A program made the position numbers and the translations under genes. This document shows positions 3,001-57,000 of a stretch of 64,000 nt of DNA, piece by piece. The DNA comes from Candidatus Omnitrophota bacterium (lineage in GTDB: Bacteria; Omnitrophota; Gorgyraeia; Zapsychrales; JANLHA01). Every line of letters starts with the position of its first letter. The first letter of the stretch is position 1. Location of the stretch: NCBI GenBank assembly GCA_963662715.1, contig OY759724.1, positions 1,178,662 to 1,242,661 on the forward strand, written 5' to 3'. A model generated the notes under the pieces. The model saw nothing but the letters and a program-made list of their open reading frames with translations. It searched no databases and was not told the DNA's origin.

Positions 3001-3040
3001 CGTCGGAAATCAGCCCCCGAACGTTATCTTCCTCGCTGAC
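1..3040 (-). other. Further SSP-delimited modules of unknown function; the giant ORF runs on past coordinate 1
   Basis: Stop-free translation, codon-checked at 1076 to 1141 and continuing to position 1. Junction motifs at about 2310 (MTSSPV) and about 289 (SSSSSPV). Confidence 0.5.
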
Positions 3041-39000: not shown

Positions 39001-42000
39001 GCGCAAGCCCTTCCGGCATGCCTTTCGTCTGCACCAGGACTTTAAATCCGAGGTTCGTTGCAATATCATGCTCGGCCCAGTCGGAAAGATGGACCAGATC
39101 TTCATCGAGATTCCACAGCCAGTCTCGCTGATACGTGAAGCCTAAGGAATCCAGGCCATGCTGTTCTCCGTGCCGGGCCACATCATAGAAGTTCACCATG
39201 GCGGTTATATTAACCTGGCCTGCCTGCGCATAAATATCCTCTATCGGCAGATGCTCCTCTTTTCCGCTCCAAACTGAATATTCCCGGCCTTCGATATTTT
39301 CTTCAACTTTCCCGCCGTAATCGATAGTGACCACAAACCCTCTCTTCAATGACCTTGATATGATCTGCTGCCATGCCTCAATAGCCGGCTGGACAAAAAC
39401 TTCGGTTCCTTCCGGCAGAGTAACGCCCAAACGGTCCACGTAATCTTCGAGTTGTCTGCTGGACAGTTCGCCGATTTCATCCCGATAAGTGCCGTCCTGC
39501 TCAACCGTGTAGATTTCTTTAAATTCTCCCTCAACGGCTTTCAGCCGATGACCCGGCAGGTCATCGATCAACTCGTTGGACAGGAACACGCCTTCGATAT
39601 CGTGAAGATCTTCTTCGGTGACATCAAGCACGGACTTCTCAATCCAGCGGACTTTACCGGCGAATTCGGCTAATTTTTCTCGCTGATTTGTCCTTAAGTT
39701 AGAACTGAATTCCACAATGACATATTCCAGAGCCTGGAATAACTGCGGCTGATATTCCTTGAGATAGCTCATGATATTCAAGGCATATGTTCCGTTCCCG
39801 GCACCCATCTCCACAACGCTGAACTTGGCCGGCCGGCCCATCTTGTTCCACATTTCGCTAAGCTGATACCCTGTAGAATATCCGAAATATTTCGCTGTTT
39901 TGCGGTCTTCAACATAGGTGTCAAAATCTTTTCCGCGTCCGATCTGCGCGATCCGGCCGTAATATTCTGTCTGGGCCTGCGACATAAACTCGGCAAATGT
40001 TTTTCTGTTCTCAATCGGTGAAGAAGATTTCTTGCCGGAACCTCGATTGCCTTTTAATGTCTTGACCGCGACCATGGATCCGGGGATCCTTTTTTCCAGA
40101 GCGTCGACAATCGTCTGATTCTGGCCTACCGGGGTGAGCACCTTAATCTTCCACTCCGTAAAGCCGTCTTCGATCTCCCGGCTCTCGATCTCTTTGATGG
40201 ACATATTCATCTCGGCGATCCGCTCAGAAACGAGACTTTCCATGCCCGGCCACGGCTCGGTCACAATCGTAATCAGGCGCGGGATCGTCGGCATAGCCTT
40301 AGCGCCCTTAACCTTGAGGATGGCCTGCACATCGTCCTTCATTCCGTTAATCTCTTCAGCCGGGATATCCATATCGATCACCAGGTTATCCCCTTCCACT
40401 TTCTGTTCATGAACGTTGCCGAGATGCTGCGTGATGACCGCCACGATATCTTTAAGCAGACCGATACGGTCATACGGCAGATGCAGGGTCATCTTGCCAT
40501 AGGTCTCTTTTGCCTTGCCTTTTTCGTAATACACGTCAACGACATCAAATTTGACATGTCCTTCTTTAAAGTCCAATTTGGCCAATTTAACATTATCATT
40601 ACCGACAAGCTGGAAGAACTCATCCTGTTCTTCCAGGAGGCCCCAGCGGAGGTACAGGCTGCGCACAAGACCAGCGTTCTGCAAACCTAAGCCTAAGGCC
40701 GACAGGGAATCCCGTCCTTTTTGCGCGGCATTGAAATCAAATTTCTCCAGCAGAAGCACTGTTCTTAGATTCATAGCGTTACGCAGGATAAAGCGGCGGT
40801 TTCTCTCCAGATAACTTCTGCTGTCTCCCGGTTTACCCGGACGGACCGGAGTCAGCGGATTAATGCCAACAATATCCCCGTTCTGCAGCTCATACTTCTC
40901 GCTTCTTATTTGACGGCCCCTGATTTCATAGGCGTCAAAATCATTGCGGATTCTTAAAGTTTCAACCCCTAAATATTCGTCATCCAGTTTATGAATATCT
41001 TTTCTGGCAGCGATGTCCGCCGGGATACTGCCTTTCTTGAGTCTCAAAGTCTTGAAAGAATATTCGTGTCTGCCTTTACGGGTCGGCGGTTCATGGACCT
41101 GGACATAAACCCAGTCGCGAATGGATTCCAGCAAGCGTTCAAAATCAGCATCAAAGTCACCGGCGATATCAACCTGGCGGAAATTAAATTCCTGGTTAGG
41201 ATACATTTCAACCATCTTGTAGAACCAGTGGGCCGCTTTGTTCCCGAAGCGCATAAGATTCAGGTTCGTCTCGTTCATAATCTTAATCTCAAGCGGCACG
41301 CCCTTGACCTTTGTCCATGATTTTGCCGGCAGCATAAGGCCCATATGCAGACTGTCATAACGGTCGAATTTCGCAATCATGCGGTGCTTGGTCCGTTTAG
41401 GAATGATGCTTCCGATGTCGACAAAAATTTCATCGCTATATTCATCAATAAGCGTCAAGGCCTCCCAATAATCCTGGATCTCCCCTTTCACGACCACATG
41501 CAAACCTAACAGGTCATAGAGAGGATCATCCTTGGCCTTCCTCTCCTGCCGTTCGAATTTCTCCGCGATAGAGTAAACGCTCTTGACGCGGGAGCTCATC
41601 GAGAACTTCACTCCGCTTTCTCCAAAAATCTCTTTCAGCCGTTGCTGGAGCTTTCTCTTAACCTCCAGCAACGTCCCCCTGGCTTCTTCATACGTCATGC
41701 CGAGCAGTTCCTCTTCGATCTTCCGCTTCATCTGAACATATTCCTGAGGATGGGCGACCATATAAATTTCATTACGCAGCATGGAGGAGAGATCATCCCG
41801 GCCGAGACGTTCGGCTAACGGTGCGAAAACGTCTTCAACGACCTCTTCAAAATATTTCAATTGTTCCTGCGCCGCCTTATCAATTTTCCTGCCCCGGAAC
41901 TTCTGAATGGTGCTGTAAACTTCCTTGAAGATCTGCGACATGCCCTTAGCGGAACCGGCCAACTGGACGATCATCTCCATATAATTCTGAATGGAGTCGC

Positions 42001-45000
42001 CGCGCTGATACACAGGGATGTCGGTAATGCTCGGGACCCGCGCTAAGCCCTTCTTCACCGCCTTCTTCTTGATCGGCGAAGAGGAATGTTGCTCTCCATA
42101 GAATTCATCCAAAGTTATCATCCTGTCTGTCGGAACCTGTGCCGGCCGCCAGGCCACAATGACAGGAGTCATGATCCCCGGAGTCGTCGGCAGGTAGCCC
42201 CGCAATTCTTCAAAGACGCGTATTTCGGTCAAGCCTATACTGCGCAGATAATCTTTGTAGCGCTGATAACTGGAGACCGCCATGTCATCGTGTTGGATGC
42301 GGACAAAAACCATGGCCGGGCCTTTGACCGGAAGCAGTTCGGGCAACGACCTCTTGATCTCATCAAACACACCTTCGGCAAAGAACGGCTCATTCAAAGT
42401 GATGACGTTGAATTGATGCCGCAATTCTTTCTCAAAACCGGCCTCTTGAGCTGACAGGCCATAAAATTCCGCCTCTCCCTCGTCCGGACTGGTCAACGGG
42501 TCAATGCCGGTCACTCTCTTCAACAGCTCCATAGCTTTGCTGCTGGCGGCTATGGTATTGGCAAACGCATTATCACCCGCTCCGATATCAAGGAGGGCGG
42601 CATCTTTTCCAACATATTGTTCGATCAACCTTAAGAACGTTGTGTCTCCTTGGGTCCACTCTTCGCCGCTTAACCGGGCCTCAGCAAGAACCCCTTGCAT
42701 CCTCTGATCAAAACTTGCGTTCCCTGAGGAGCGGTTGAGCATCGGAGAACTGACAGCGCCCGTTTGAGTTTCACTAGAAGCAATAGAATCGTCTCCTGAA
42801 GCAATTTTTGCTTCAATTGTCCGGGTCATCGTTTCAACAAAATATTCATTCATATCCAACGGAGTTGAGCTCATCAACGTGGAAGCGCCGACGCTGCTCT
42901 TGACAACTGACTTGATACTGCTGCTGACGGTATCGGCTTCTTTGCTTGCCAGGTAAGCCGCATATTCTTCGGCGCTTAACGGCGCAGAGCTCATTAACGT
43001 GGAAGCGCCGACGGTACTCTTCGCTGCTTCCTTGATACTGCTGCTGACGGTATCGGCTTCTTTGCTCGCCAGGTAAGCCGCATATTCTTCGGCGCTTAAT
43101 GGCGAAGAGCTCATTAACGTGGAAGCGCCAACCGATGTTTTTCTCTCAACCGGCTGAACCTGGACTTCATCAATCAATCGTAAGCTGCTTCCCTGGGCCA
43201 CCCGGGCAGCCGGGGTAACAACCTTGGTGTAGACATGGCTCAGAGCCCCGAACGCTCTCATAAGGAACCTCACCAGGAAGTCCAACAAGAACCTCAACAG
43301 CATGGCCATTCTCTTCATCAGGGATGCCATGGTGATATAAATCACTTCCTTTTGCTCAACTGTTTCATCGACAGCCGGGAAGACCAGGCTTATCTCGGCA
43401 TTATCCCGAACCGCGTCTTTTCTGCCCGGGACAATGATCAGGGCTTTCTGCCAGGCAGCAAGGCCTTCATAGGCACGGCGGCCGGCTGAGAGAAGACCGG
43501 TTTCCACCACGTGGCTCTGATGAGAAGAAACCGGCGAAGAAACTTCTTCCAGGACCGGGGAAGAAGAAGCCTTAGGAGCAACCTTGTAAGGTGTGAGCGT
43601 CCAGATAACAGCATTAATTCTTTCCTCATTACCATAAACTAATTTCAGCAATTCTTTTTCTTCATCCGTGAAGCTGATCTTTCCGGCTAATTCTTTGATT
43701 AGAGCATCCCTTTTCTTTGCGCTGGTTTCGGCGGCCGTCGCAATAATTTCCTCTAAATCCTGGGCCAAGGCAGCTGAATTCTCTTTGATCTTCTTCTCAA
43801 TCAAGGCAAGCGCCTCTTCCTTCTTGGCTGCCAGGAAGGCTTCTGTCAGAGCCTTCTCCAACATCTTTTTGGCCTCCTCTTCATCATTACCGTTTAGATC
43901 CTCTAAGGCAGTTCTCAATTCTGCGCTTAAGCGGTTCTGCCAGATATCGTCCTTCTTTTCCGCGATATCTGATTGATTCTCAATCTTCGCTTTTCTCAAC
44001 AATTCATCCGCATCCAATAATTTCTCTACGGCTTTCTCCTGCTCATCTTTATTCTGCTTCTCCATTTCCCCGTACAATGCTTGTCTGGCCTTAGCTCTGT
44101 CATTATCGCGGGTATCTTCCAAAGCTGCCCGGAAGGTCTTCGGAGATTTATACCAGACATCCTCTGTGACTACGTCCGTGACACCGCCCTTGGCTTTCCG
44201 GACTCCACGGAATTTATCCAAAAGACGCTTTAATAATTTCTCCGCCATCTTTTTCAACCCTGTTTTCTTGTTGTCCAGAACTGTTTTCTGTTGATCCTTT
44301 TGGGCTTTATCAATGTCAGCAAACAGCTTTTCTTTGAATTTATCCACATTGTTTTCACTCACATCCAGCAGGGCCTGTCTCAGTTCACGATCCAAATCAA
44401 AGACTTCCAACACTGTCCTGCTGACAAATTCTTTCTTAAGCTGGGAAATTTTGTCTCCTTTTTCCGTCTTTGCTATTCTTGCCCGGGTTTCGCGCAGAGC
44501 TTCAACAACCTCCGGATTTCGGCTGATGGCTTTGATATATCCGTCATAGTTCTTATCTTCTATGACCTTTTGAGCAGCCTCTTCGGCTTTCTTCTTAATC
44601 TGCCCGAAGAGTTTTTCTGCGGCCTTCTGGTGAGTTACGTTGCTCAACTCTCTACGAACCTGGGATAACAGTATCTCCGAAATGCTCTCGACATATGAAT
44701 CCGAACTGACAAACAGTCTGTCAACGCTTTTCAGTAATGCATCTTCCATGCAACCGTCCTTGGCCTTTTCAAAAATCCCTTCTATTTCTGCCAACAATTT
44801 ATATTCTTCAGAATCTCTGTCAACGGAATCAAAGGCCTTTCGGATAACAGCAATAAATTCATCCGCTGTCGTTCTGGCTTCCATGTATTCGAGTAGTATC
44901 GTAATATTACTGAATAACTGTTCTTTAACCGTGCCGGCATAAATCGGCCCAAATTTAATTCTAATCTGCCTTAACCATTCTTCTCTCTTATTGGTTTCTA

Positions 45001-48000
45001 AGACTTCTTTATATTTGCTTACTAAGGCTTCTTGGGAAGCGTCCGGGCCTAAAGCTCTTAATGCGTTCTTCACCCTCTGGAACAAGACATCATGTGATTT
45101 CAGCTCCAGTCCGGTTAAAGACATATACAACTGAACTAACTTTCTGAAGTCTACGCTTGATTCCGAACTCATCAGCATATTGATAAATCTTCTCTGTTCC
45201 GTCCCGTCTTTTTTCAATTCAATCTGCCTGAAGGCGTTTACAGCGGCCGGGTTCTTCAAAACCTGACCGGCCACATATCCGGTGTCGCTGGCCTGGGCAA
45301 ACATCATTTCGAACAGGAACTCCTGGGCTCTTTCTGCATAAACATTAGTCTCCTCCTTAATCTCGGCATCTTTTTCATCCCCGCCCTTTAATATCACCAG
45401 GGCCTTTCTCAGGTCTTCACTTAACAACTCTTCTCTTTTCCAAACAAAATTATTAATAAATTCAAGGCGTCGCGATTCCTTTTCGTCTTCTTCCTCGGTA
45501 GCGCTGATCTTTTCCACGGCTTGCTGGAACAATTTAATTGTTTGCTTCAAAATATGATCCACGGCTTCGCTTAAATTATCCTCAATAAATTTCTCGCTGG
45601 ACACCTGATCAGTAACATTTTTCCCTAAATCACCGCGGATCTCTTCAGCCCGCTTGACTTTTTCCTTGGTCCCGGTGAACAAGCCGCTAAAGAAAGATCC
45701 GGCAAAAATACCTGCGCCGGCAAAAGCGAATAAACCGAGGAAGCCGGACGGAAGGAGAGGCAACAGGAACGAACTGATCAGCCACATGCTCACTCCGGCT
45801 CCTGCGAACCAGCCGAAGACCTTGACCTTAGGATTATCTAATCCGCGTCCTGAACCCGAGCCTCCTTTACCGCCGTTCTGAGGATTATCTGATCCTTGTC
45901 CCTGGCTTGAGCCCGAGTCTCCGTTATCGTTGTTCTGAGGAGCCGGCCCGCGGGTATCGTCTCCCGGGAACATCTTTCTTAACTGTCCGCCGATCCAACG
46001 CGGCACGTTGACAATCAAGCCCAGGATCAGGCCAAGGACCGTCAGTGTCGACATGACCAGAGTTCCTGTCATGTAGAGATTCATATGATCTCTTAAGTCC
46101 TGAAGCTTGAACTTGTTCGTCTTCATAAGCGGATAAACGATGATATAAAGCATCAGCGGGATATACGGGTAACCGCCCATAAGCAGGGATAGGCCGACGA
46201 TAACTGCGGTGGTTAAGGCCCATTTCTTGAATCCGATCTTCTTGAAGAACTGCGGATAATGGGCTGTGAAGTGAACCTTGGCCCAGGTCTTGAATCCGAC
46301 TGTTGTCGGAGTTGAACCCGGATTCAGGAGGAACGGCGCAAACATCGAAGCAAAGGCCATCAAGCTCGGGAACAGCGACCATATGGAACCAGGATTCATC
46401 CAGAGGATCGTACCGCTGATGACAAAGAGGATGCTCGGGATGACCCAGCCGTAGCCTAATAAGTTCACCTGTGCGTACAAGTCGCCCTGAGTAAATAATT
46501 TTTTCGAATCAAAGCCCTTCGTCGGTTTAAACGGTACGACAGTGTCGCGGCCTGGCCGACGTCCGGTAGCGATATAATCCGCCCGGTTCACCAAGGCCTT
46601 CTTCACACCGACCGAGAACGCGTTATAAACCAGGGACATGTAGGTGATCGCCAGAAGCGGGAACAGTTTCAGGAACTTCACTGTACCGCGGACCAGACCT
46701 TTCTCCAGAACTGTCTGCAGATAACCGGATGAGGTGATGGCCTGCGATAAGAAGAAGCCGACCAAACCGAAGATAAGCTCGCTCGGGAACCCGGCAAACA
46801 AGCTCATACCGAACAATACGATGGTTAACAGGTATGTGGTATTGGAAATCACGACAAAAGGCTTGCGCAAGAAGTAGCCGATCGAAGCGACGAAGTGGCC
46901 CAGGGAGCGGCTGAAGCCGACGACCTTGGATTTGTTGTGCTGCCGCAGCATATGACCAATGGCCTGTTCAGCGGCACCAGCCCCGAATTTCTCGGAAATA
47001 CCGACCAAACCAACGTAGACCGCTTCACGGCCTTTACCGGCCTGCATCAATTCCGTGTTCGACACTCTTTCACCCATGAGCGTGGCTTTGTAGGCGCCGA
47101 AGATATCTTCATTGACCCACGGAGCGCTGAAGAGACCTAATTGTCTGAACGATCTGCCCCGGACAAAGTCAGGGTGACCGTAATGGTAGCGGATGCCCAT
47201 GAAGTTCAGCACTCTCTGGACCATGGTAACGAACGTATGGTCACCGAAAGCGTGCACCGCACCGGCCGGAGAGAATTCGTCAGTAAAGATATCTTCCGGA
47301 ACACCGACGATCGCGACCTGATCATCCCGGCGGAACTGTTCCATGACGTTCGGAGCCTTAAAGGTTTCTTCAAGGTAAAGATCCTGGTTCATGTCCATGA
47401 CCATGACGATCTGGCCGCGGGTGAAGCGCAGGATATTATTCTGGTTCATCGGTTTACCCTGACCGGCAAACGGATGGCTGTGCAGGCGGATCGGGTTGAG
47501 GCGGACCACGCGGCCGATGGTGTTGCCGTCCCGCTCAAATTTATGCATAACATCCTCACCGTCCTGTACTTCTCCTGCGCGGTACTCAACCAAGGCACCG
47601 GCAAAACCGTTGATCCTATTGTCCGGATTGTGCAGGTAAGCCATTCTCATGGACGGGTATTTCTTCAGGAGCAAGTGAATATCCTGTATCAATAAATGGG
47701 CTTTAGCACTGTCTTCTTGCAGCAAGTCACCGTAAGGCTGGTCACCGGCGACAAACTCAAACTTCTCGTCAACTTTTGCGAGGATCTTTGCTTTGTAATC
47801 ATATGCGTTATGGAGTTTCTCCTGTTGGCCTTCCAGTTCCTTTCTCAATTTTTCAAGTCCGGCGCGGCGCTCAGCCTTGGCTTCCTCATCTTCCGCAGCC
47901 TCTAATTCCTCTTCTGCCGTGGCGATCTTTTCATATTGACTGAATATGTCATTTAGGACTTCTGTTAAGGCAGCCACAGCCTCTATTTCAGCTTTAAGAG

Positions 48001-51000
48001 CTTCTATTTTCTCCTTCTGCTCTTCAATCTGCTGTTCTACAGCGGCGATCTGGATATTTAACAGCTGCTTTTCTTGCGACTCGCTGTCTTTCTTCGCGTT
48101 CATCTTTGCTATTAACTCTTTCAATCCGTCTTCCTGTTCTTCCAGGATTAATTTTTCATGGCCCATTTCCGCTTCGGCTTTCGCTTTCCGGCTCTCCTGG
48201 TCTGCCAGCAGCAAGCCTTCCAGAGTCGGGAAGTTGACCTTGGCCAAGAATTCATACATTTCTCTGTAGCGCATAATACCGCGGACCGAACGGGACAGCG
48301 GCTGGTAGCGGTAAGACACCCATAACCGGACTTCAAACTGCATATCTTCATCGTTGATATCGAGTTTCTGGCCGTAAGTCAATTGGTCCATGTTCTTGAT
48401 ATCATGCATCTTCCTCTCAAATTCCTGCTTCGAGATATTTTTAGCCGCATAATCGGCTTTCACTTCATTTTCCATTCTCTGAACAAAATTCTTCCATTCG
48501 TGCGGGGCTTTGCTGATGATATACGTCAAGAAAGTGGCATTGGTCAGATATCTTTCGTTGATGGCATCATATTCATCAAATGTCTTGTCGCTGAACGGAT
48601 ACACAATGGTTTCAAACAGGAACGGCAGGGCCACACTCATGGTATACATTTTCTCCCAGATCGGAGTCTGATCCATATCCATGAACAAGCTGGAGAGGAA
48701 GTATTTGATACGGGCCTGCACCCTTTCCGTTTCCGGAACGGCTGAGAAGTCAGGCCGTCCTGTAACCTCACCCGTTAAGAAGTTATATTTTTCTTTGTGT
48801 TTTATGTCGTACCGCAATTTATCGGCTTGGTCGTCACTGAGTAAATCATCCTCTCTCAGGGCATTGATGATCATGTTCCAGGCCTCGGCCCAGGCAATCG
48901 TCTTCTGTTCGTCTGTCAGATCCACACGGGACATCACCCAGGTATCCTTGCCCTCTTCATCTTTAACCTTCCTGGCGCTGACGTGGGAGGCCGGCAAGTT
49001 CTTGTTCTTGAACTCTTCGGCGGCGCTTTCCAGGATATCATCAACCGAATCTCCGCCGATCTTCTCCAAGCCGTAATGAGCTAAGATCACGTTCAGGAGC
49101 TTTAAGGCAAGCATTCCGCCCAGGATGATGCCCAAAGCCGGCCAGCTGATGAATCCGAGCGCGGCCGTCGGCCAGAGGAGTTTAACGGCTGTGAACCCGG
49201 CCAGAACATAAAAGGCTTTCGGAACATAATCTTTTAAGGTTTCTGTGAGGGCGGCTCCGACTTTGCCCGTGATGCTGTCTTTTGCCTTGACCTTGCCTTT
49301 GATGCCGGACCAGGTGAGCACGCGGTTGTTACCGTTCCATTTGGCGATGATGTAGCCGAGCGCGCTTTCAATGAGGTAGAAGTAAGCGAAGATATCCAGC
49401 AAGAAGATCATGAAGAACACGGAGAAGGCCCCGGCCAGGAGAATGACATTCCCGAACGGCAGGACAGCGGTTCCCAAGCCCGGCAGCATCCAGGAGCTCT
49501 TGAACACAATACTGAGCGGCACAGCGAGCCATTTCCAGATATACAGGTTGAAGACAAACTTGGCGAGGAAGGACAAGCCCATGACGATACCGGCACGGAT
49601 CTTTCTTCCGGTGTTTCCGTGCAGTTTCTTCGGATTAATTCCGGCATCCAGCGGCTGGATATCCCACTCATCATGATCCAGGGTCTTCTTCTGCGAATAA
49701 ATCTTATCGATCTTCTTGATACCGAAGTACACCAAGATTGCCAGTCCGACAACGATGCCTACACCCGTCAGCCAGGACACTAAGGAGGCGCCGGCCAGGG
49801 CCGGGACCTTCCAGACCCCGCTCCAAATCAGACCGTAAGAGGAGGCAACGATCGTGCCGAGCAGGGTGGCAATGATCTTGTTGAAGTTGATGACGATCTT
49901 GAACCAGCCCAGGAGACCGAACTTGCTGGTCTGCACATCCGGATAAACTTTCCTGATATAGTCGTTGACGCAGATGGCCTTGGCCCCTGGCCCTGCCGGC
50001 AACTTATTGACATTAGCCGTGCGCATAAATTCAAAGGCTTCCTCAACATTTCTGTCAGCTGTCTTGTCCTTCTTTACATCCCTATAAATTCCAACAATAT
50101 CCTTTCTCACCTGCTCTTCGATCAGGTCGCGTCCGGTCTGGCCGTTTTCATCCGGCGTCTCATACCAGGTAATGAACTTCGGTGAACGGAAGTACATTTC
50201 AACTTCGTCGTGCTGAATGACATCGGCGTTAGTGCGACCGCCCTTGGCTTTAGCGACTCTCTGGTGCAGGGACAGGATGACAGACCAGAGCCGGGCCTCC
50301 TGCTTCTCAATGACCTCGCCGATCTTCTTTTGACCGTAGCGTCTGAGTCTCAAGGCTTTATAGAATCGGTAGAAATCAACGGCAGATGTGACGTGCGCTG
50401 TCTTATCAGATGCCAAATTCACGAGATAGTAGAGATACATTTCTTCAAGACCGAAGTGATTGTCGATCTGGTCGAGTTCATACTTCAGGACTTCTGCATC
50501 AAGCGCTTTGCCCATGATCCTCTCGAACCAGTCCCGGTAGCGCTTGAAGAATTCCTTGATAAACTCTTCTTCGGAAACACCGCTGTACAGGTCATTCTTC
50601 ATTTCGCTGGTCAGCATGGTCTTGGCCATCAGGGCCACAGATTCCTGGAAGCCGTAAGCCGGCAGGTATTTGATCTTCGCCAGGATTTCTTCAATATTCT
50701 TAATACCCTTCCGGTCCAGTTTCACTTCTTCCGATTGAGGTGCAGGCTTCTTGTCCTTCTTCAGCCCTTTCTTCCGTAATATCTGGCTGATCCAGGCAAC
50801 GATCTTTCCGATGATCAAGATACCCAAGAGGTAGGCTCCGCCCAAGCCGCCGACGACCTTCCATGACCGGCCTTCTTCAAGCCATTTCTGGAACAGTTTC
50901 GGACGGGCCTTATCGATCAGGTCATCATCGTTATAGGTATATTCCTGTTCATAAATCTGTCCTGGAGATTCATCGTCTTTGACCAACCGGTAATTTTCCG

Positions 51001-54000
51001 GTTTGAACTGGCCGGGAGCCACGCCTTCGGCTTCGTCAACCAGAATGCGTGTTCCCTGCAGGTAGGTCTGCTGACCTTCGGACTGGCCGTTTTCAGATTC
51101 TTCATCCTGAACAGCAAAGAATTCCAGGTCGCGGTAAACCTTGATCACATGGCCTTCATCGGTAATGGCGGCCCACGGTTTTCTGTATGGAGACTGCGTA
51201 TCATAAAGAACCGTCTCTTCACCCTTTGTGGCCACCCCGAGCATCTGCAGCATGATCTGCATGGTCACATGAGCATAATTTTCGGTCAACAACTGTCCGG
51301 CCGGTGTATAAACGATTTCACGCTGGAACGGAGCGTCCAAGACGAAGTATTCATAACCGCGGACCTGGCTGAGCGTCTTGCCGTCGTTATAAGAATACTG
51401 CAGGACAGGCAAGACCTTATCGGCGTCTGTTCCGAACACTTCGGCGATGCTTGACTTGATATCCTCCGGATTGACAATCAGGCGGATCTCTGTTTCATCG
51501 GTATACGGCTCGGCCCAGCCTCTCGCCAGCAATTTCTCTGAAATTTCTTCCCAGTCAAGGCCTTCTTCTCTCTCGACCTGCTGCTGTGTCAGGACCTGCG
51601 GATCGACGATCTTGACCGTCATCTGCTCACCTCTTCCGCCGGTCAGGATGAACTTCCGGCCGTCATTGCCCAGGACATCTCTCCGGTAATAATCTTCCTC
51701 CTCGGTCGGAGAACGGAAAACCCGGACTTCTTTCAAGCCGTTGCCGTCCTTGAACACGATCGTTCCCGGATTGATTCCGACTCTCAGATCAACTTCAATA
51801 TCTTCCCCGTTATTGACCTTGAGCTTGTGTCCTTCCAGCCACAGGACATTAATACCGAAATCTTTGTTGGCATAAAGCGTGGCGATATCGCGGCCGCGGC
51901 TGTCATTCGGAGTCAGGTAATGGTAAAGCTGCTTACCTGTCTTGTCCGGATTATATCGCGGCCGGCCCAGCAGAGGCAGGAGCGTCTTGGCATCCGCACC
52001 GAACACTTCCGTCATCTCCGCTCTCACGTCATTCAGGTTGACGATCAGGTGAATCTCCTCAAGGCCTGTGCGCTGAGCCCACCCGTTGTGGAGCAGTTTT
52101 TCGGAGACATCGCTCCAGTCAAGCTCGGCTCTCTCGATCTGATTTTTGGTCAGATAACCGTTCTCAAGGATAACCGGTGTTTCCTCAACGATATCAAACA
52201 ATGTCGCGCGGGAAATACCCATCTTGGCCAGATGCTGCCAGAGATAAGCATTTTCAAGTCCGAAGCGGACGAGCGCTGTTCTGTTGTAGGATCTTTCCAT
52301 TTCCTCATTAAACAACGCCTCTGCCTGTACCTTCAGGCCAAGCGCTTCAGCCTCTTCAATACTTAACGTTCTGAAGAATGTTTCTATCTGATATTCAACC
52401 CGCTCTTCCGCTTTCTCTCCCGCAGGCCCTTCAATTCTGGTAATCACGTCATCGAGCTTCACGGACCGTTTCACTTCACCCGTTCTCTCATCAAACTCAA
52501 GACCCACGATAATTTCCACCAGGTCTCTTTCAAGATTATCCGGGTTCTGGGCCGGGACAGCTTCTTCCCTGACCGTAATGATCTTTCTCTTCACCGGATC
52601 ATGCGGGATTCGGTATGTCGTGGTTCGGACATTGTCAACCGTTGTCTCTGTCGAAACCTCAAAGATCAGATCCGACAAATCATCCACTTTACTGAACCGG
52701 GACATATCAAGGTTCAGCAAGGCTTCTCTGACCAAATCATGCTGGATAAGAGCGGCGAAATCGATCTGCTGAATATCTCCGGCCCTGACACGGCCCCTAT
52801 TTTCCGTATCCCAGACTTTGACCCAGCCTGAACCGTTCGCGCGGATCTCAACCTCGCTGGTCTCATGCTTGCCTGTCGGAGAATATTCTTTTCTTTCCTG
52901 GATTCTGAAGATGCTCTTTTCACCCGCCCGCTCACCAAGCTGTTCGTTTTTGTCAGAATCCTTAACCAAGGCGAAGAGCTGTTCCTGATTTTCAAAGTTC
53001 TCCGGAATCTGGATAGACCCGATCTGTTCTACCATAATCTTGCCCTTAACGATTTCTCTGCGTGTGACAAGAGCGCTTCCGCCGAGTTTCTCCTGGTCTC
53101 TCAGGTTAATGAATGTCTGGACGCGGTTCTCCCTGGTTCCGGTATAGCTGTAAACTCCCGTGACATTTTCGACTTCAACCTCTGTGCCGTCTGCCTGACG
53201 GACCGTTACGGTGAGACCTGTCTCTTTCTTGTAATCCGTGGAATAAAGCTCTTCGCCCGTTTCCGGATCAAAATAACGGATCTCTTCGCGCTCAGGATCT
53301 GTGCTCTGCAGCAGTTCGCCCTGGGCATTGTACACGTCATATCTTTCCGTATCAGCCGCGAAATCTCTGACCGTGACATATCTGTTGCCTTCGGCGTCAA
53401 CACGAGTTGTCAGAGATTCTCCGATGACCGGGCCTGTTATGTCGACTGTTCCGTCAGCATTGACCTCATAGTCATCCAGCCAGTAAACCTTGCCGACGTT
53501 TTCGGAATCAAAGATTTCAATCTTCGACTCTTCCTGATCCACGGCCAGGTACAAGCGGGCGCCCCTGTTTCCTGGGAGGGTAACGTCAAGCACGCCGAAC
53601 TTGTTCACGTATCTTGCGTTCCAGCGGGCCTTTTCATAATTGGCGACATCCATCAATTCATCCATGGTCATGGACATGGCCGTGTTATCCTGATCCGTGA
53701 AGAAGAATTCCGTCTGCTGTCTCTCTGCCACCATGTCTTCGCCGGCAAAGCTGTAGTCCACAATACCTCTCGTCATGATGTCAGCATCTTTCATCGATTC
53801 GATTCTTTCGCTCAAACCGCTCAACCGCTCTTCGGAAGCCCCTCTCTGTGTTTCTGCGACACGCTTACGTTCTTCTAAGACTTTCTTCTGCAATTCAAGC
53901 GCCGTATCTCCTCGATCCTCTTCCGGCGAATTATACGGATCAACAAAGAGGCTGATAATCCATTCAATGAAGTCCATGAAGCGGTCCAGCAGGGACGGAT

Positions 54001-57000
54001 TCCTGTCTACGGCGGCTGCTTCTGCGGCAAGCCGTTCTTCCGTTTCTTTCGCGATCCGCTCTTCGATCTCGGCGATTTCGGCTTCCAGTTCGCGGATTCT
54101 TTCAGTATATTCCTCAATTTCTTTCTGGGCTTCTTCCGCCTGTGCCGTCAAGACCGGCAACATATCAATGACCACCGTTGACTTCAGAGCCCTGAGCTCT
54201 TCACTGATATATCCGTCTTCCTGTGAATAGTACTGGATGGTTTCTGATTCCAGACGGCCTTCATACTGACCGGTCAGATATTGCGGTGAATAATACGGAT
54301 AACCTGCGCCTTCATACTCAAGGTGCTGATCTGTCGTTCTGTATCTGTCAGAGTGATCCAGCGTCATCAGTCTTTCATATCTCTCATTGCTGATGATCTG
54401 GTAATCGAACAAGGTGCCCTGCCGCAGGATTCTCACCCAGTTGCCGCTCAACCGGAACTGTTTGACTTCGTCTTTATAATCCTGGCTCAGTTCGATGACA
54501 ATGCGTCGGTTGCCGGCGATATCGACAAACGTGTCGGCCTCGCGGGTATCCGGCGTTGCCAGACGTGACAGCATGCGCGGTCCGCCGAACCTGGACAAGG
54601 ACCACTGCAAAGTCCACTTAGACCCGTATTTATCCATGAACGATGTCAACCGCTCCTTGATTTCCCCGGCCGATAAGTCAACGGCTTTGTCTTCGCCGGC
54701 CTCACGGAGGAGTTCGCTCAAGAAGCTTATGGTCTCGGCATTGAAGGACACCGTCTCGATATAGGAGGCGATGTTCTCGCGGTCAACCGCAAAGATATCT
54801 TTCAGCATCTCGACCTGGTCTTTTGCCGCGAAGAGCGTTCCGTGACCGTTGCCCATCGGAATACCGAATTTATCTGAAGAAATTTCTTCGAACAGATCTT
54901 TTCCGGAAACATCTTCGCTGCTCCTTGCCGCCCCGAACTCGATGATAGCGCCGTCATATTCTCCGCCGACAACCACAAGTTTGCGCAATTCTTTACCGTC
55001 TTCGTCATAACGTCCTAACGGAACGAAATCTATGGTTCCGTTAGCCAGGTTGGAATCCGTTAACTCAAGCAGCGTTGCCAACGTTAAGCTGAACGAACCT
55101 GTTCCTTTTAACCGTAATGCGCCAATGTTGCCTTCGATGACGGCCCCGTCATAAATTCCGCCTCTCACGACCGTTCTGGTTACGCTTTCTCCGTTAACCG
55201 TAACGCTCTCGGTCTCAAGATAGCCGTTGCTCTTATCCCCATCCGCCAGGATTTCCAGGATGTCCTTCGTCAATCTCACCGGCTCGGCATTCTCCAGCAT
55301 CAACATATGAGAACTGCTTAACAATTCGAGCTCTCTCCTCATCGTCATTAAGTTGTCGTCCACAAACACGGCCTGGTTGTATCCTTCCGGCATCTCATTT
55401 CTCGTGTCTTCGCTGAGATCTTCGAAGTCTTGCGGCAATATGACGCGGGCCTTGCCCTCTTTCAGGTCAACCTTATACTCTACTGTCTCGCCGGCTCCGT
55501 TGACGTAGGTCGCCTTCATGTAGAAGGTCACCTGCTCTGTCTCTTCATTGATCGTACGGAAAATACCCACAGCATTAAACTGTTCTCTATAGTCTTCATA
55601 AGTGTCTCTGATGGACAAGCCGTAAGAGAGATCTGCTTCTGGGATGGCAAACAGCGGCGTACCGTCCACTAATTTTGCAACGCCGCCGAGGGTTTCCGCC
55701 GTAAAGGCCTCGATACCGCGGTCGACCAGATCAGCGCTCGGGATCACCACATCGCCTTGCGGAGTAATGGAAAGGAGGATATTGCTGTACACCGACTTCC
55801 GGCTCTTGATCAATATCCCTTCGATTTCTTCGAATTGATCCTCTTCCAGACCCGGGAACCATGCCTTGAATTCCGCATCCAGCTCTTCGAATTCCGGAGC
55901 CACCCGCATGGCTTCCGATACATAGCCTTTCTCGATGAGTCTCGGAATAATCGTTGCCGCATCAAGCCCGGCTCTTTCAAACGGCTGGGCTGTCAGGATG
56001 CCGCGGCCGGAGCTCAAGGTCATCTCACCCGTGCCGTTGAGGTAGCTGCCGAAGATCTCTTCATCATCCTCGTTGAATCCGGTGGCCACGCCCAGCAACC
56101 GTTTATTTTCTTTATCCTGATCTTCAATATCCTTGCCTTTGATGAGCCGTCTTAACTGCTCCCAGGCGACAGAAACAAAATCATATTTAAGGTTGGCAGA
56201 CGGCTCACCGGTTGTGGAATATCGCGCTTCATATTCAAGTTCTTTCGTAATGTTTCTCCGGACACTGGCGGTCGCGCCGTAATCGCCGTACTGGTTCACG
56301 AAGGCTCCAAGGCTGATGCCCTTCTTGCTATACTGCACGCCATATGTTTCAAGATCATTTTCCCTCTGGTAGTAACCGGAGAACGGCCCGACGTTGCTTC
56401 TCAGGCTTAACCGGTCAGAATCGCCGAAGGCCTGATCCACGGACATGCTGAAAGTCTTCCAGCTGTATGTGGCCCCTAAGAGCGCGTAATACCGAGTGTA
56501 ATCCTCCCAGAGGTCATGGACGAAACCGTCGCTTTCTTCCCTGACCCCGGAAACGCGTACGCTGAACTGATGTGCGCTATTCTCATTTGTCAAAGCCTGC
56601 TCGATTGTGATCTTCTGGTAATTGACCTTGTCATCAACGCCGAACGTGAGATCTTGTTCATCGATCGCCGTTTGCCCGGTCAGCGGATCAACGATATAAA
56701 CATCTCCCACCTCGGCTCTGTATCCATCTATGTACCCGGCTTCGGCGCTGATGGTCGTCTTGTTTATCTTGACTTCGACATACCCTTCGACACCTTTGGT
56801 TTCCATCTCTTCGCCTTCAACATTGAATTTCCAGAACGGAGCGAGACCGGCATAGACTTCCGCGTCGCCGACTTCCGTACGGTAAGCCAGGACGTCCACC
56901 AGGAGGATAGCGGATTCTTCCTGATCCTCACCGTCATCCGGGTCGGCGGCGTTCTGCAGGTAACGGTAAGATTCTGTATAACCGACGGAGAGGTTATGGC

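What the first reader, a model, noticed from the sequence alone, without database searches (positions are those of the whole stretch)
45660..50880. A eukaryote-type GT48 (FKS1/callose-synthase-like) beta-1,3-glucan synthase module sits inside a prokaryotic giant protein
The codon-checked catalytic-core peptides match FKS1 hallmark motifs in order: GKPMNQNNILRFTRGQ…MDMNQDLYLEE, IVGVPEDIFTDE, RYHYGHPDF, NEDIFGAY, QAGKGRE, KFGAGAAEQ. Multi-helix TM bundles lie on both sides, the same topology as fungal and plant FKS proteins. GT48 is essentially a eukaryotic family, so a bacterial, intron-free, fused version coupled to peptidoglycan-lytic and LPS-type glycosyltransferase domains is unexpected. 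It could mark a novel exopolysaccharide or envelope glucan pathway, or an ancient horizontal transfer.
Basis: partly seen in the sequence, partly recalled or inferred. Interest (0 to 1): 0.85.

Follow-up and report, generated by a model that had tools for sequence, protein, structure and literature searches.

The report
Bacterial FKS-type glucan synthase in giant gene

Summary
The whole 64-kb window is one stop-free minus-strand reading frame (21,333 codons, open at both ends). All seven quoted peptides occur in order at aa 5515-5679.

The segment matches Pfam Glucan_synthase (E 4.5e-68) and yeast FKS1 (E 8.5e-33). Two AlphaFold models (pLDDT 85 and 80) have Fks1/Fks2 cryo-EM structures as their top 13 PDB hits. 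The module keeps the full FKS layout:
- an N-terminal domain homologous to the N-terminal cytosolic region of eukaryotic callose synthases;
- a bundle of about six TM helices;
- a GT-A domain with most catalytic and substrate-binding residues conserved;
- a C-terminal TM bundle.

It is not contamination. Codon usage is continuous. The closest relatives are Omnitrophota. One restrictive scan found 44 loci in bacterial species genomes labelled Omnitrophota, Planctomycetales/Planctomycetia or Elusimicrobiota, including a closed chromosome, and nearly all lie in multi-thousand-codon ORFs.

The bacterial sequences form their own clan, separated from eukaryotes with 100/100 NJ bootstrap, so this is not a recent transfer. 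The catalytic and channel region is under strong purifying selection (dN/dS about 0.07).

Most likely it is an active, processive UDP-glucose beta-glucan synthase and exporter that also anchors the giant protein in the membrane. The product and its linkage are inferred, not shown. I found no paper describing bacterial GT48.

The parts
1..64000 (-). One uninterrupted reading frame (21,333 codons; codon 1 starts at window 64000), open at both ends: part of a giant multi-enzyme ORF of the Omnitrophota 'Archaeovorin' type
   Evidence: 0 stops in this frame, 510-1325 in the others; domain content; description of the class.
45677..50845 (-). Complete FKS/CalS-like (GT48) module, aa 4386-6108
   Evidence: Conservation among bacterial homologs reaches upstream to about aa 4400, more weakly to about aa 4200, and ends near aa 6130.
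50777..50845 (-). Single TM helix (TM0, aa 4386-4408), followed by the K/R-rich stretch RKKGLKKDKKP
   Evidence: (hydropathy 1.99) and the sequence. The orientation (upstream part outside, downstream part inside) is inferred from the positive-inside rule.
50153..50662 (-). Helical N-terminal domain (aa 4447-4616) homologous to the N-terminal cytosolic region of eukaryotic callose synthases. Sharing the motifs I recall for FKS1 'domain 1' (PF14288).
   Evidence: hhalign, bacterial against eukaryote profiles: Prob 97.1, E 4.9e-11, 155 columns, with FGFQ, NY..W and YDD..E.F motifs. All-helical with pLDDT about 87-95. Not seen by Pfam hmmscan alone.
49076..49897 (-). N-terminal TM bundle, about 6 helices (aa 4702-4975), the counterpart of FKS1 TM1-6
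   Evidence: Conserved in bacterial homologs.
46901..49003 (-). Cytoplasmic GT-A glycosyltransferase domain (aa about 5000-5700)
   Evidence: Pfam PF02364. FKS1 residues 747-985 and 1067-1318 aligned. Model pLDDT mostly above 90.
47804..48223 (-). Coiled-coil insertion inside the GT domain (aa 5260-5399). It is lineage-variable: absent from homolog L002 and only 37% identical to the closest homolog.
   Evidence: (helices 461-600 of the model).
46964..47458 (-). Catalytic motif block (aa 5515-5679):
- GQGK5516-PMNQN, matching FKS1 K1082 and N1085
- D5536-M-N5538, matching the FKS1 'DAN' motif D1102/N1104
- PE5569D
- YG5608H5609PD
- NE5631D5632, matching the FKS1 ED motif E1221/D1222
- GK5656GR5658E
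- K5671FGAG, probably matching FKS1 K1261 (numbering from my own recall)
   Evidence: These residues are kept in 49-51 of 51 bacterial-clan sequences and 37-38 of 38 eukaryote-clan sequences.
45989..46864 (-). C-terminal TM bundle (aa 5713-6004) with the conserved cytosolic YIATGR loop and the FAPFLLNP motif. It is the presumed glucan channel.
   Evidence: 87-90% identical to the closest homolog; dN 0.09.
45821..45988 (-). G/S/N/Q-rich low-complexity linker (aa 6005-6060)
   Evidence: Sequence.
45677..45817 (-). Terminal pair of hydrophobic helices (aa 6062-6108), conserved in the close homologs P0001, P0002 and P0036
63548..63865 (-). SLT lytic transglycosylase domain (aa 46-151) in the same ORF, upstream of TM0
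   Evidence: PF01464, E 3.9e-16.
21215..22330 (-). Kdo-transferase-type Glycos_transf_N plus Glycos_transf_1 (aa 13891-14262) in the same ORF
   Evidence: E 3.7e-18 and 2.1e-9.
3596..3775 (-). GT9 (heptosyltransferase-type) partial match (aa 20076-20135) in the same ORF
   Evidence: E 1.9e-5, 24.6 bits against a cut-off of 22.

Best explanation
Window 45677-50845 (minus strand, aa 4386-6108 of the window ORF) encodes a complete, probably active, FKS/callose-synthase-type (GT48) polysaccharide synthase module. It is embedded in a giant multi-enzyme ORF of an Omnitrophota-like bacterium.

Shown here:
- It is homologous to fungal FKS1 and plant CalS along the whole enzyme: the N-terminal helical domain, a bundle of about six TM helices, a GT-A catalytic domain and a C-terminal TM bundle.
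- Most residues that FKS1 structural work ties to UDP-glucose binding and catalysis are conserved. The exception is the FKS1 Y849 position.
- Against its closest homolog, the catalytic and channel part is by far the most conserved stretch of the alignable region around the module (aa 4544-6982).
- It belongs to a deep bacterial GT48 clan that recurs in Omnitrophota and Elusimicrobiota, almost always inside ORFs of many thousands of codons.

Inferred mechanism:
- The GT domain lies on the cytoplasmic face and takes UDP-glucose. It adds glucose processively with inversion, most likely forming a beta-1,3-glucan, and threads the growing chain through the channel formed by its own TM helices to the outside of the inner membrane.
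- The module holds nearly all TM helices in this 21,333-aa stretch, so it also anchors the giant protein in the membrane.
- The K/R-rich flank after the single upstream TM helix suggests an orientation. The 4,385 or more residues upstream, which include the SLT peptidoglycan lytic transglycosylase, would be extracytoplasmic. The downstream nucleotide- and SAM-using enzyme domains would be cytoplasmic.

The biological role is speculation: a glucan coat, a matrix, or an attachment polymer of these ultra-small, host-associated bacteria.

Confidence by layer: real bacterial GT48 homolog about 0.95; active processive synthase/exporter about 0.65; beta-1,3 linkage about 0.45. The overall figure given is for the composite statement.
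For: - **Profile and sequence.** PF02364 E 4.5e-68, 230.7 bits against GA 37.2. FKS1 and GSC2 chains are the only PDB sequence hits, E 8.5e-33, covering FKS1 747-985 and 1067-1318, plus the YI(S/A)TGR and FAPF..NP motifs in the TM region.
- **Fold.** AF2 model of aa 4800-5999: pLDDT 84.9, pTM 0.85. Its 13 best Foldseek PDB hits are all Fks1/Fks2 (E 2.9e-25 to 4e-16, TM-score up to 0.51 on query length, 1146-1346 aligned columns). BcsA, HAS, CesA and Chs follow at E 5e-9 or weaker. The model of aa 4380-5579 (pLDDT 79.5) again hits only Fks1/Fks2 at E up to 0.001.
- **N-terminal domain.** hhalign against the eukaryote N-terminal region: Prob 97.1, E 4.9e-11.
- **Catalytic residues.** The K1082, N1085, D1102/N1104, E1221/D1222 and E851 equivalents named in the FKS1 review, plus the GKGRE and KFGAG lysines, are conserved. 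They are invariant or nearly so in 51 bacterial-type and 38 eukaryote sequences.
- **Constraint.** Identity to the closest homolog is 87-90% across aa 5500-5899, against 32-43% just outside the module and 37% in the coiled-coil insert. dN is 0.09 and dS about 1.3 for aa 5400-5899, against dN 0.58 for the flank.
- **Bacterial origin.** One continuous ORF. No codon or GC break. Nearest relatives are labelled Candidatus Omnitrophota. 44 loci in GTDB species genomes include a closed Endomicrobiaceae chromosome, and in 35 of 42 loci the ORF is open at both ends of the fetched locus.
- **Separate clan.** The bacterial | eukaryote split has 100/100 NJ bootstrap, with taxon labels.
- **Topology.** TM-like segments are confined to this module plus one hairpin at aa 8819-9066.
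Against: - No biochemical evidence exists for any bacterial GT48. Donor sugar, linkage and processivity are extrapolated from enzymes about 27% identical in the core.
- The FKS1 uracil-site tyrosine Y849 is not conserved. It is Leu5128 here and Gly in L002.
- A 140-residue coiled coil is inserted in the GT domain.
- The eukaryotic activator Rho1 has no bacterial counterpart, so regulation must differ.
- The TM count after the GT domain is ambiguous (about 7-9), so the proposed in/out topology of the rest of the giant protein is not established. West-Roberts et al. also found TM predictions on these proteins unreliable.
- Whether the giant ORF is translated whole or processed is unknown.
- The tree is a distance tree on 364 columns, unrooted (midpoint only), and many leaves carry no taxon label.
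Confidence: 0.65

Rival explanations
1. The GT48 segment is eukaryotic DNA wrongly joined to bacterial sequence, through contamination or assembly chimerism.
For: GT48 is known almost only from eukaryotes (general knowledge).
Against: - The frame is stop-free for 64 kb across both borders.
- GC, GC3 and synonymous codon usage in the segment lie within the range of the rest of the ORF.
- There are no introns.
- The closest relatives are bacterial MAG and SAG sequences at 45-72% identity, while eukaryotes are about 27% identical in the core.
- The same module sits in long ORFs in 44 independent bacterial genomes, including a closed 1.84-Mb chromosome.
- The domain carries the bacterial-clan diagnostic residues.
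Confidence: 0.01
2. The module is a relic. It serves only as a multi-pass membrane anchor or scaffold for the giant protein and no longer makes polysaccharide.
For: It holds nearly all the TM helices of this 21,333-aa stretch. A large coiled coil is inserted in the GT domain. The Y849 equivalent is lost.
Against: - The other catalytic and substrate-binding residues named for FKS1 are kept, and they are invariant or nearly so across 51 divergent bacterial sequences.
- The cytoplasmic catalytic core, not only the TM helices, is the most conserved part (87-90% identity; dN/dS about 0.07).
Confidence: 0.1
3. It is an active processive synthase, but its product is not a beta-1,3-glucan. It may use another UDP-sugar or form another linkage, or make a mixed or short primer glycan for the other glycosyltransferase domains of the giant protein.
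For: - Core identity to characterised enzymes is only about 27%.
- Clan-specific substitutions lie next to catalytic residues (5570 D against H, 5659 E against D, 5654 A against V), and Y849 is lost.
- The structurally related GT2 synthases make cellulose, chitin and hyaluronan with the same fold.
- The same ORF carries GT30-, GT4/GT1- and GT9-type domains.
Against: All characterised GT48 members make beta-1,3-glucan (general knowledge; for diatoms, where the paper's text says beta-1,4, probably an error). The glucose-binding ED and K/N motifs are unchanged.
Confidence: 0.2
4. It was recently acquired from a eukaryote, for example a host or prey protist or fungus, by an Omnitrophota lineage.
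For: The whole eukaryotic architecture, including the N-terminal domain, is present. Omnitrophota and Endomicrobiia include host-associated forms (general knowledge).
Against: - Bacterial sequences are a separate clan with 100/100 bootstrap, not nested in any eukaryotic group.
- Diversity within the clan (mean 36%, minimum 22% identity) is at least as large as among eukaryotes (mean 47%).
- Codon usage is fully native.
Confidence: 0.04

Closest known systems
Fungal FKS1/FKS2 (GSC2) beta-1,3-glucan synthase, CAZy GT48 (cryo-EM structures 7xe4, 8jzn, 8wla, 9wzs and others)
   Same: - Same order of parts: N-terminal cytosolic helical domain, six TM helices, GT-A domain, C-terminal TM bundle.
- Same catalytic motifs: GxGK..NQN, DxN, ED, GKGR(D/E), K.G.G..Q, and the YxxTGR and PFxxNP motifs in the TM part.
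- It is the best and only strong PDB match by both sequence and fold.
   Different: - About 16% identity over the structural alignment and about 27% in the core.
- Y849 equivalent not conserved.
- 140-aa coiled-coil insert in the GT domain.
- An extra upstream TM helix and a terminal TM hairpin after a low-complexity linker.
- No Rho1 partner is possible.
- It is a module inside an ORF of at least 21,333 codons rather than a 1,876-aa protein.
- It falls in a separate phylogenetic clan.
Plant callose synthases (CalS/GSL), GT48
   Same: The N-terminal domain aligns best with this group (hhalign template P0109, Populus). Catalytic motifs are shared.
   Different: Plants have SED where most bacterial sequences have NED, and GKGRD against GK(A/G)RE. 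Plant-specific N-terminal extensions are absent.
Omnitrophota 'Archaeovorin'-type and 'multi-enzyme metabolic cluster' giant proteins (West-Roberts et al. 2023, bioRxiv 10.1101/2023.11.21.568195; 2026 preprint 10.64898/2026.06.07.730766)
   Same: - A very long single ORF.
- A mix of glycosyltransferase, methyltransferase, NUDIX, SLT, radical-SAM and HATPase_c domains.
- Many TM helices.
- Omnitrophota affiliation of the nearest homologs.
   Different: Neither paper mentions Glucan_synthase, GT48, FKS or callose in its main text. The window shows no SecA-DEAD or C39 domain, but it covers only part of the gene.
Bacterial processive GT2 synthases (BcsA cellulose synthase; CrdS curdlan synthase)
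   Same: Same general mechanism and fold class: a cytoplasmic GT-A domain fused to a TM channel. BcsA is the next-best structural hit after Fks (E 5.5e-9). From general knowledge, CrdS makes bacterial beta-1,3-glucan.
   Different: A different CAZy family. This module has the metal-independent DxN motif of FKS1 rather than DxD. It has no PilZ/c-di-GMP domain. The match covers only about 400-500 of 1200 residues.

Membership tests
CAZy GT48 / Pfam PF02364 Glucan_synthase (FKS/CalS) | Profile match above the curated threshold | tested here: met
   230.7 bits against GA 37.2, E 4.5e-68, profile positions 168-509 of 819 in the best stretch. 235.3 bits when the whole module is scanned.
CAZy GT48 / Pfam PF02364 Glucan_synthase (FKS/CalS) | Catalytic and substrate-binding residues of FKS1: K1082, N1085, DAN motif D1102/N1104, ED motif E1221/D1222, E851, Y849 | tested here: met
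   K5516, N5519, D5536/N5538, E5631/D5632 and E5130 are all present and invariant or nearly so in both clans. The exception is Y849, which is Leu5128 here.
CAZy GT48 / Pfam PF02364 Glucan_synthase (FKS/CalS) | GT-A domain inserted between an N-terminal bundle of about six TM helices and a larger C-terminal TM bundle | tested here: met
   Hydropathy. AF2 secondary structure. Near full-length Foldseek alignments to Fks1/Fks2.
CAZy GT48 / Pfam PF02364 Glucan_synthase (FKS/CalS) | N-terminal cytosolic accessory domain (FKS1 'domain 1', PF14288) | tested here: inconclusive
   Profile-profile hhalign against the eukaryote N-terminal regions gives Prob 97.1 and E 4.9e-11, with shared FGFQ, NY..W and YDD..E.F motifs. 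No Pfam hit appears by hmmscan even at E up to 10. The residue-level structural superposition was not inspected.
CAZy GT48 / Pfam PF02364 Glucan_synthase (FKS/CalS) | UDP-glucose:beta-1,3-glucan synthase activity | not testable with these tools
   Needs an enzyme assay and product linkage analysis.
CAZy GT48 / Pfam PF02364 Glucan_synthase (FKS/CalS) | Activation by a Rho-family GTPase (fungal holoenzyme) | not testable with these tools
   No small-GTPase domain was found in the window. This feature defines the fungal holoenzyme, not the CAZy family.
Omnitrophota giant 'Archaeovorin'-type protein (West-Roberts et al. 2023) | Single ORF of tens of thousands of codons | tested here: inconclusive
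   At least 21,333 codons with neither end in the window. The paper's set used genes longer than 90,000 bp, and the full length here is unknown.
Omnitrophota giant 'Archaeovorin'-type protein (West-Roberts et al. 2023) | Domain repertoire: glycosyltransferases, methyltransferases, NUDIX, glycosyl hydrolase/SLT, peptidases | tested here: met
   SLT, GT48, Methyltransf_28, NUDIX, GT30/GT1-type and GT9-type domains, plus RelA_SpoT, PRTase and HATPase_c. No peptidase was seen in the window.
Omnitrophota giant 'Archaeovorin'-type protein (West-Roberts et al. 2023) | SecA-DEAD-like domain and N-terminal C39/S8 peptidase | tested here: not met
   No such Pfam hit in the 21,333 aa covered. The gene's N-terminus lies outside the window, so this is weak evidence.
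Omnitrophota giant 'Archaeovorin'-type protein (West-Roberts et al. 2023) | Omnitrophota origin | tested here: inconclusive
   The nearest homologs are labelled Candidatus Omnitrophota (72% identity over 1420 aa). The window's own genome was not identified: no exact match in metagenome contigs, and the best genome contigs identity is 63-64%.

The most novel reading that the evidence does not exclude
GT48 is not a eukaryotic invention. Under this reading, a deep, diverse bacterial clan with the complete FKS architecture (N-terminal domain, both TM bundles, catalytic domain) is either the source of the eukaryotic beta-1,3-glucan/callose synthase, acquired before the last eukaryotic common ancestor, or its sister from a very ancient exchange. 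In these bacteria the synthase works as one station of a membrane-anchored giant polyprotein that couples glucan export with peptidoglycan cleavage outside the cell and nucleotide-sugar chemistry inside.
Probability: 0.25. Interest if true: 0.85.

Novelty: new variant of a known kind. Interest (0 to 1): 0.7.

Why it matters
Beta-1,3-glucan synthase is the target of the echinocandin and triterpenoid antifungals, and it is the enzyme behind plant callose. It is treated as a hallmark eukaryotic cell-wall enzyme, and I found no discussion of a prokaryotic relative.

A well-conserved bacterial clan would matter in four ways:
- It gives an outgroup or a possible donor for the origin of eukaryotic glucan walls.
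- It offers compact, intron-free, cysteine-free bacterial versions for structural and mechanistic work. Some sit in bounded ORFs of about 2,500 aa.
- It assigns a concrete, testable activity and a membrane topology to part of the otherwise enigmatic Omnitrophota giant proteins.
- It predicts an unrecognised beta-glucan in the envelope or matrix of Omnitrophota and Endomicrobiia.

Tried and rejected
- **The ORF listing.** It showed no long ORF. This is a tool convention, because ORFs that run off the ends are not listed. A six-frame stop count resolved it.
- **The search for related loci with a single protein on genome contigs.** Found nothing.
- **The search for related loci with the 37-sequence alignment.** A 10-sequence alignment worked, but it used only two very specific peptide patterns, so 44 loci is a lower bound.
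- **The search for homologous proteins.** The word-indexed search returned only 1, 5 and 10 hits. It is insensitive for this family. The exhaustive representative search was needed.
- **Exact 58-mer search of metagenome contigs.** No hit, so the source contig was not identified.
- **Fold search against afdb50.** The library was not available.
- **Pfam scan of the N-terminal domain at E up to 10.** No FKS1_dom1 hit. Only profile-profile comparison detects it.
- **Literature.** No paper links GT48, glucan synthase or FKS with Omnitrophota or Elusimicrobiota. One search was badly specified (min_terms 1). It showed only that no top-ranked paper holds both 'Velamenicoccus archaeovorus' and 'glucan synthase'.
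- **Second GT48 copy in the window.** None.
- **Exact in/out topology from TM counting.** Left open. The FKS1 papers themselves count 15 or 17 TM helices, and I could not read the model coordinates.

Full report
**1. What is in the window**

A six-frame stop count shows that minus-strand frame 0 has no stop codon anywhere in the 64,000 bases (21,333 codons). The other five frames have 510-1325 stops each. The ORF listing reported no long ORF only because it omits ORFs that run off the ends. The window is therefore an internal piece of a single giant gene.

**2. Is the segment a GT48 enzyme?**

*Profile and sequence.* Pfam Glucan_synthase (PF02364) matches at E 4.5e-68, with 230.7 bits against a gathering score of 37.2. 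A phmmer search of all PDB sequences returns only S. cerevisiae FKS1 and GSC2/FKS2 chains (E 8.5e-33). The alignment covers FKS1 747-985 and 1067-1318, and the conserved YI(S/A)TGR and FAPF..NP motifs of the TM region are recognisable further on.

*Fold.* An AlphaFold2 model of aa 4800-5999, built on a 40-sequence alignment, is confident (mean pLDDT 84.9, pTM 0.85).
- Its 13 best Foldseek matches in the PDB are all Fks1/Fks2 cryo-EM structures (E 2.9e-25 to 4e-16).
- TM-scores reach 0.51 over 1146-1346 aligned columns.
- Bacterial BcsA, hyaluronan, cellulose and chitin synthases follow at E 5e-9 or weaker and cover only about 400-700 columns.
- A second model of aa 4380-5579 (pLDDT 79.5, pTM 0.81) again matches only Fks1/Fks2 at E up to 0.001.

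*Catalytic residues.* A recent review names the FKS1 catalytic and UDP-glucose-binding residues: the ED motif E1221/D1222, then K1082, N1085, Y849, E851, and the metal-independent DAN motif. The window has GQGK5516-PMN5519QN, D5536-M-N5538, E5130 and NE5631D5632.

I aligned the window core with 36 diverse bacterial and eukaryotic representatives. D5536, E5569, G5608, H5609, E5631, D5632, K5656, R5658 and K5671 are invariant, and K5516 and N5538 are at least 90% conserved. Across 51 bacterial-type and 38 eukaryote-type sequences the counts are 49-51 of 51 and 37-38 of 38. The one exception is Y849, which aligns to Leu5128 here and to Gly in another bacterial homolog.

*Architecture.* Hydropathy places TM-like segments at aa 4386-4408 (one helix), aa 4702-4975 (about six) and aa 5713-6108 (about seven to nine). 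In the rest of the 21,333 aa there is only a hairpin at aa 8819-9066 and two marginal segments. The GT domain thus sits between two TM bundles, as in FKS1.

*N-terminal domain.* The roughly 300 residues between the single helix and the first bundle are conserved and colinear in bacterial homologs and are all-helical with high confidence.
- A profile-profile comparison with the N-terminal cytosolic region of eukaryotic callose synthases gives Prob 97.1%, E 4.9e-11 over 155 columns.
- The shared motifs (FGFQ, F.NY..W, LYLLIWGE-like, YDD.NE.FW-like) are ones I recall as the FKS1 'domain 1' signature; that attribution is from memory and was not tested here.
- Pfam hmmscan alone does not detect the domain.

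*Differences from FKS1.*
- A 140-residue coiled-coil insertion in the GT domain (aa 5260-5399). It is missing from homolog L002 and is only 37% identical to the closest homolog.
- A low-complexity G/S/N/Q linker followed by a terminal hydrophobic hairpin.
- The extra upstream TM helix.

**3. Is it bacterial, and is it a chimera?**

GC, GC1-3 and synonymous codon usage in the module lie within the range of the rest of the ORF, and the frame is continuous across both borders.

*Nearest relatives.* They are partial proteins from 'Candidatus Omnitrophota' MAGs. P0001 is 72% identical over 1420 aa and occupies its whole 6.4-kb contig. P0002-P0004 are also close.

*Exhaustive search.* A HMMER search of 1.84 billion representatives finds 898 relatives at E up to 1e-3 and 200 at E up to 1e-30. 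The best roughly 75 are mostly fragments of very long proteins (up to 7,886 aa) with the GT48 part deep inside. Typical 1.7-2.3-kaa eukaryotic FKS/CalS follow at E about 1e-44 and weaker.

*Genome scan.* A scan of one genome per GTDB species used only two strict peptide patterns. It found 44 loci:
- 28 labelled Candidatus Omnitrophota or Omnitrophica;
- 10 labelled 'Planctomycetales/Planctomycetia' (9 'uncultured' binchicken TPA assemblies and 1 ordinary MAG), which I did not re-classify;
- 2 labelled only 'bacterium';
- Ca. Zapsychrus exili;
- a closed 1.84-Mb Endomicrobiaceae chromosome;
- Ca. Proruminimicrobium;
- Ca. Endomicrobium embiratermitis;
- an Elusimicrobiota SAG.

In 35 of 42 loci the ORF holding the match is open at both ends of the fetched locus, often more than 7,000 codons. 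Two loci have bounded ORFs of about 2,470 and 2,776 codons between stop codons (2,462 and 2,761 aa from the first start codon). One of these is followed by a sugar ABC transporter. Contamination or chimerism is therefore excluded as far as sequence can tell.

**4. Relationship to eukaryotic GT48**

A neighbour-joining tree of 89 sequences on 364 trimmed columns splits into two clans, with 100/100 bootstrap support.

*Bacterial clan.* Named members are Omnitrophota, Endomicrobiia and Elusimicrobiota.

*Eukaryote clan.* Named members are Populus, Lagenidium, Protostelium, Planoprotostelium and Cyanophora.

*Divergence.* Mean identity is 36% within the bacterial clan (minimum 22%), 47% within the eukaryotic clan and 27% between them. 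Several positions next to catalytic residues are clan-diagnostic: 5659 E against D, 5570 D against H, 5654 A against V.

*Placement of Elusimicrobiota.* These sequences form a subclade next to the window's Omnitrophota subclade, which suggests transfer between the two phyla.

*Caveats.* The tree is unrooted apart from midpoint rooting and is distance-based. It argues against a recent eukaryote-to-bacterium transfer but does not give a direction for an ancient one. Two short contigs in the bacterial clan are labelled Dehalococcoidia and Njordarchaeales. I treat these labels as unverified binning.

**5. Is it functional?**

Against the closest homolog, identity is 87-90% across aa 5500-5899 (catalytic half plus channel helices) and 60-85% in the rest of the module. 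It falls to 37% in the coiled-coil insert and to 32-43% just downstream of the module.

Nei-Gojobori estimates give dN 0.09 and dS about 1.3 (near saturation) for aa 5400-5899, so omega is about 0.07. The downstream flank has dN 0.58. Together with the conserved catalytic residues, this favours an active enzyme over a relic.

**6. Mechanism (inferred)**

By homology with FKS1 and the structurally related BcsA-type synthases, the cytoplasmic GT-A domain should bind UDP-glucose. It should add residues with inversion through the ED general base, without a metal (DxN rather than DxD). The polymer should pass through the channel formed by the adjacent TM helices.

The product is most likely a beta-1,3-glucan. 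This rests only on family membership.

The helix at aa 4386-4408 is followed directly by RKKGLKKDKKP. By the positive-inside rule, the N-terminal domain and the GT domain lie in the cytoplasm, as the chemistry requires. The 4,385 or more residues upstream, including the SLT lytic transglycosylase, then lie outside, where peptidoglycan is.

The downstream domains use nucleotides or SAM: RelA_SpoT, Methyltransf_28, PRTase, NUDIX, a radical-SAM-like CX3CX2C, a Kdo-transferase-like GT, HATPase_c and GT9. They would need to be cytoplasmic, which requires an even number of TM passes after the GT domain. I could not verify this count.

The module would then be both the glucan exporter and the main membrane anchor that separates an external arm from an internal enzyme array. 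The biological role is speculation: a coat, a matrix, or attachment to host or prey.

**7. Comparison with the literature**

The gene fits the 'Archaeovorin' / 'multi-enzyme metabolic cluster' class of Omnitrophota giant proteins. Neither paper on these proteins mentions glucan synthase, GT48, FKS or callose in its main text.

Searches of 8 million open-access papers and preprints gave the following:
- GT48 with Omnitroph*: no paper.
- GT48 with Elusimicrobi*: no paper.
- 'glucan synthase' with Omnitroph*: one hit, apparently unrelated (a hypersaline-lake metagenome survey), judged from its title and abstract.
- GT48 with prokaryot*: none of the 15 listed titles and abstracts (of 31 hits) looked relevant.

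FKS reviews compare the enzyme only with GT2 bacterial synthases. The sequences are public, and the protein collection searched here carries precomputed PF02364 hits for them. As far as I can see, the bacterial clan has not been described. I could not consult CAZy or InterPro taxonomy tables.

**8. Verdict**

The module belongs to a recurrent, ancient bacterial GT48 clan, so it is not a one-off. It is eukaryote-like in design but not recently eukaryotic in origin.

I class it as a new variant of a known kind. Interest is 0.7, and the open points are enzymatic activity, product, and the direction of the ancient transfer.

Noticed in passing
window 1-64000 (-); Cys codons at aa 4677, 6417, 13212, 13404, 13408, 13411, 13534, 13828, 13905, 14420, 14462, 14748, 14949, 20757, 20837: Extreme cysteine avoidance: 15 Cys in 21,333 residues (0.07%), and none in the GT48 module itself (aa 4386-6108). 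Bacterial-clan GT48 proteins have 0-0.6% Cys, against 0.7-1.6% in eukaryotic ones.
   Followed up: partly
window 23768-23791 (-), aa 13404-13411: Three of the 15 cysteines form a CX3CX2C motif exactly inside the weak Radical_SAM Pfam hit (E 2.2e-4, below threshold). This suggests a real radical-SAM domain in the giant protein.
   Followed up: partly
window 39134-41593 (-), aa 7470-8289: A RelA_SpoT (p)ppGpp-synthetase-type domain (E 1.4e-9), a weak ACT hit, and a strong Methyltransf_28 domain (E 1.9e-50) lie downstream of the GT48 module in the same ORF. UPF0489, PRTase, NUDIX, HATPase_c and DUF4202 hits lie further on.
   Followed up: no
window 36800-37545 (-), aa 8819-9066: This is the only other clear TM pair in the 21,333 aa: two hydrophobic helices about 200 residues apart. 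It may be a membrane hairpin that re-anchors the cytoplasmic enzyme array.
   Followed up: no
L002 2067-2083 (GCA_040960175.1, JBFOMP010011251.1): In this homolog the GT48 module is split in mid-GT-domain by a TAA stop plus a frame change, giving ORFs of 688 and 923 aa. It also lacks the coiled-coil insert. This is either an assembly or sequencing error or a genuine split or pseudogene.
   Followed up: partly
L016 6416-13804 and L014 7895-16180: Two Omnitrophota genomes (SAG AM-311-J02 and Ca. Zapsychrus exili) carry the GT48 module in bounded ORFs of 2,462 and 2,761 aa rather than in an open giant ORF. In L016 a CUT1-type sugar ABC transporter (SBP_bac_1/8, BPD_transp_1) follows downstream. 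These are good candidates for expression.
   Followed up: partly
P0091 (MHA1676782.1, 2.9-kb contig) and P0080 (TRZ47878.1, 11.8-kb contig): Bacterial-clan GT48 fragments are deposited under 'Candidatus Njordarchaeales archaeon' (Asgard) and 'Dehalococcoidia bacterium'. This is probably mis-binning of short contigs. An Asgard GT48 would matter for eukaryogenesis, so it deserves a check.
   Followed up: no
P0141 (MCA9395530.1, Omnitrophota, 3,412 aa): GT48 core at residues 64-450 of a protein annotated as glycogen/starch synthase. This suggests beta- and alpha-glucan synthase domains in one polypeptide. The 2026 preprint lists starch-synthase catalytic domains as the commonest sugar-module Pfam in long Omnitrophota proteins.
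   Followed up: no
L003 / L026 (Ca. Endomicrobium embiratermitis, contig Ga0123356_10000011, 212 kb): The GT48-bearing ORF here is 5,737 aa and its only Pfam hit is Glucan_synthase. ORFs of 1,859 aa and more than 1,569 aa without any Pfam hit follow it. This is a termite-gut Endomicrobium version of the same theme.
   Followed up: no
window-wide composition: GC skew and AT skew are negative in essentially every 2-kb bin of the + strand. This is consistent with one coding strand throughout. The only near-zero bin (46001-48000) is the GT48 catalytic region.
   Followed up: no
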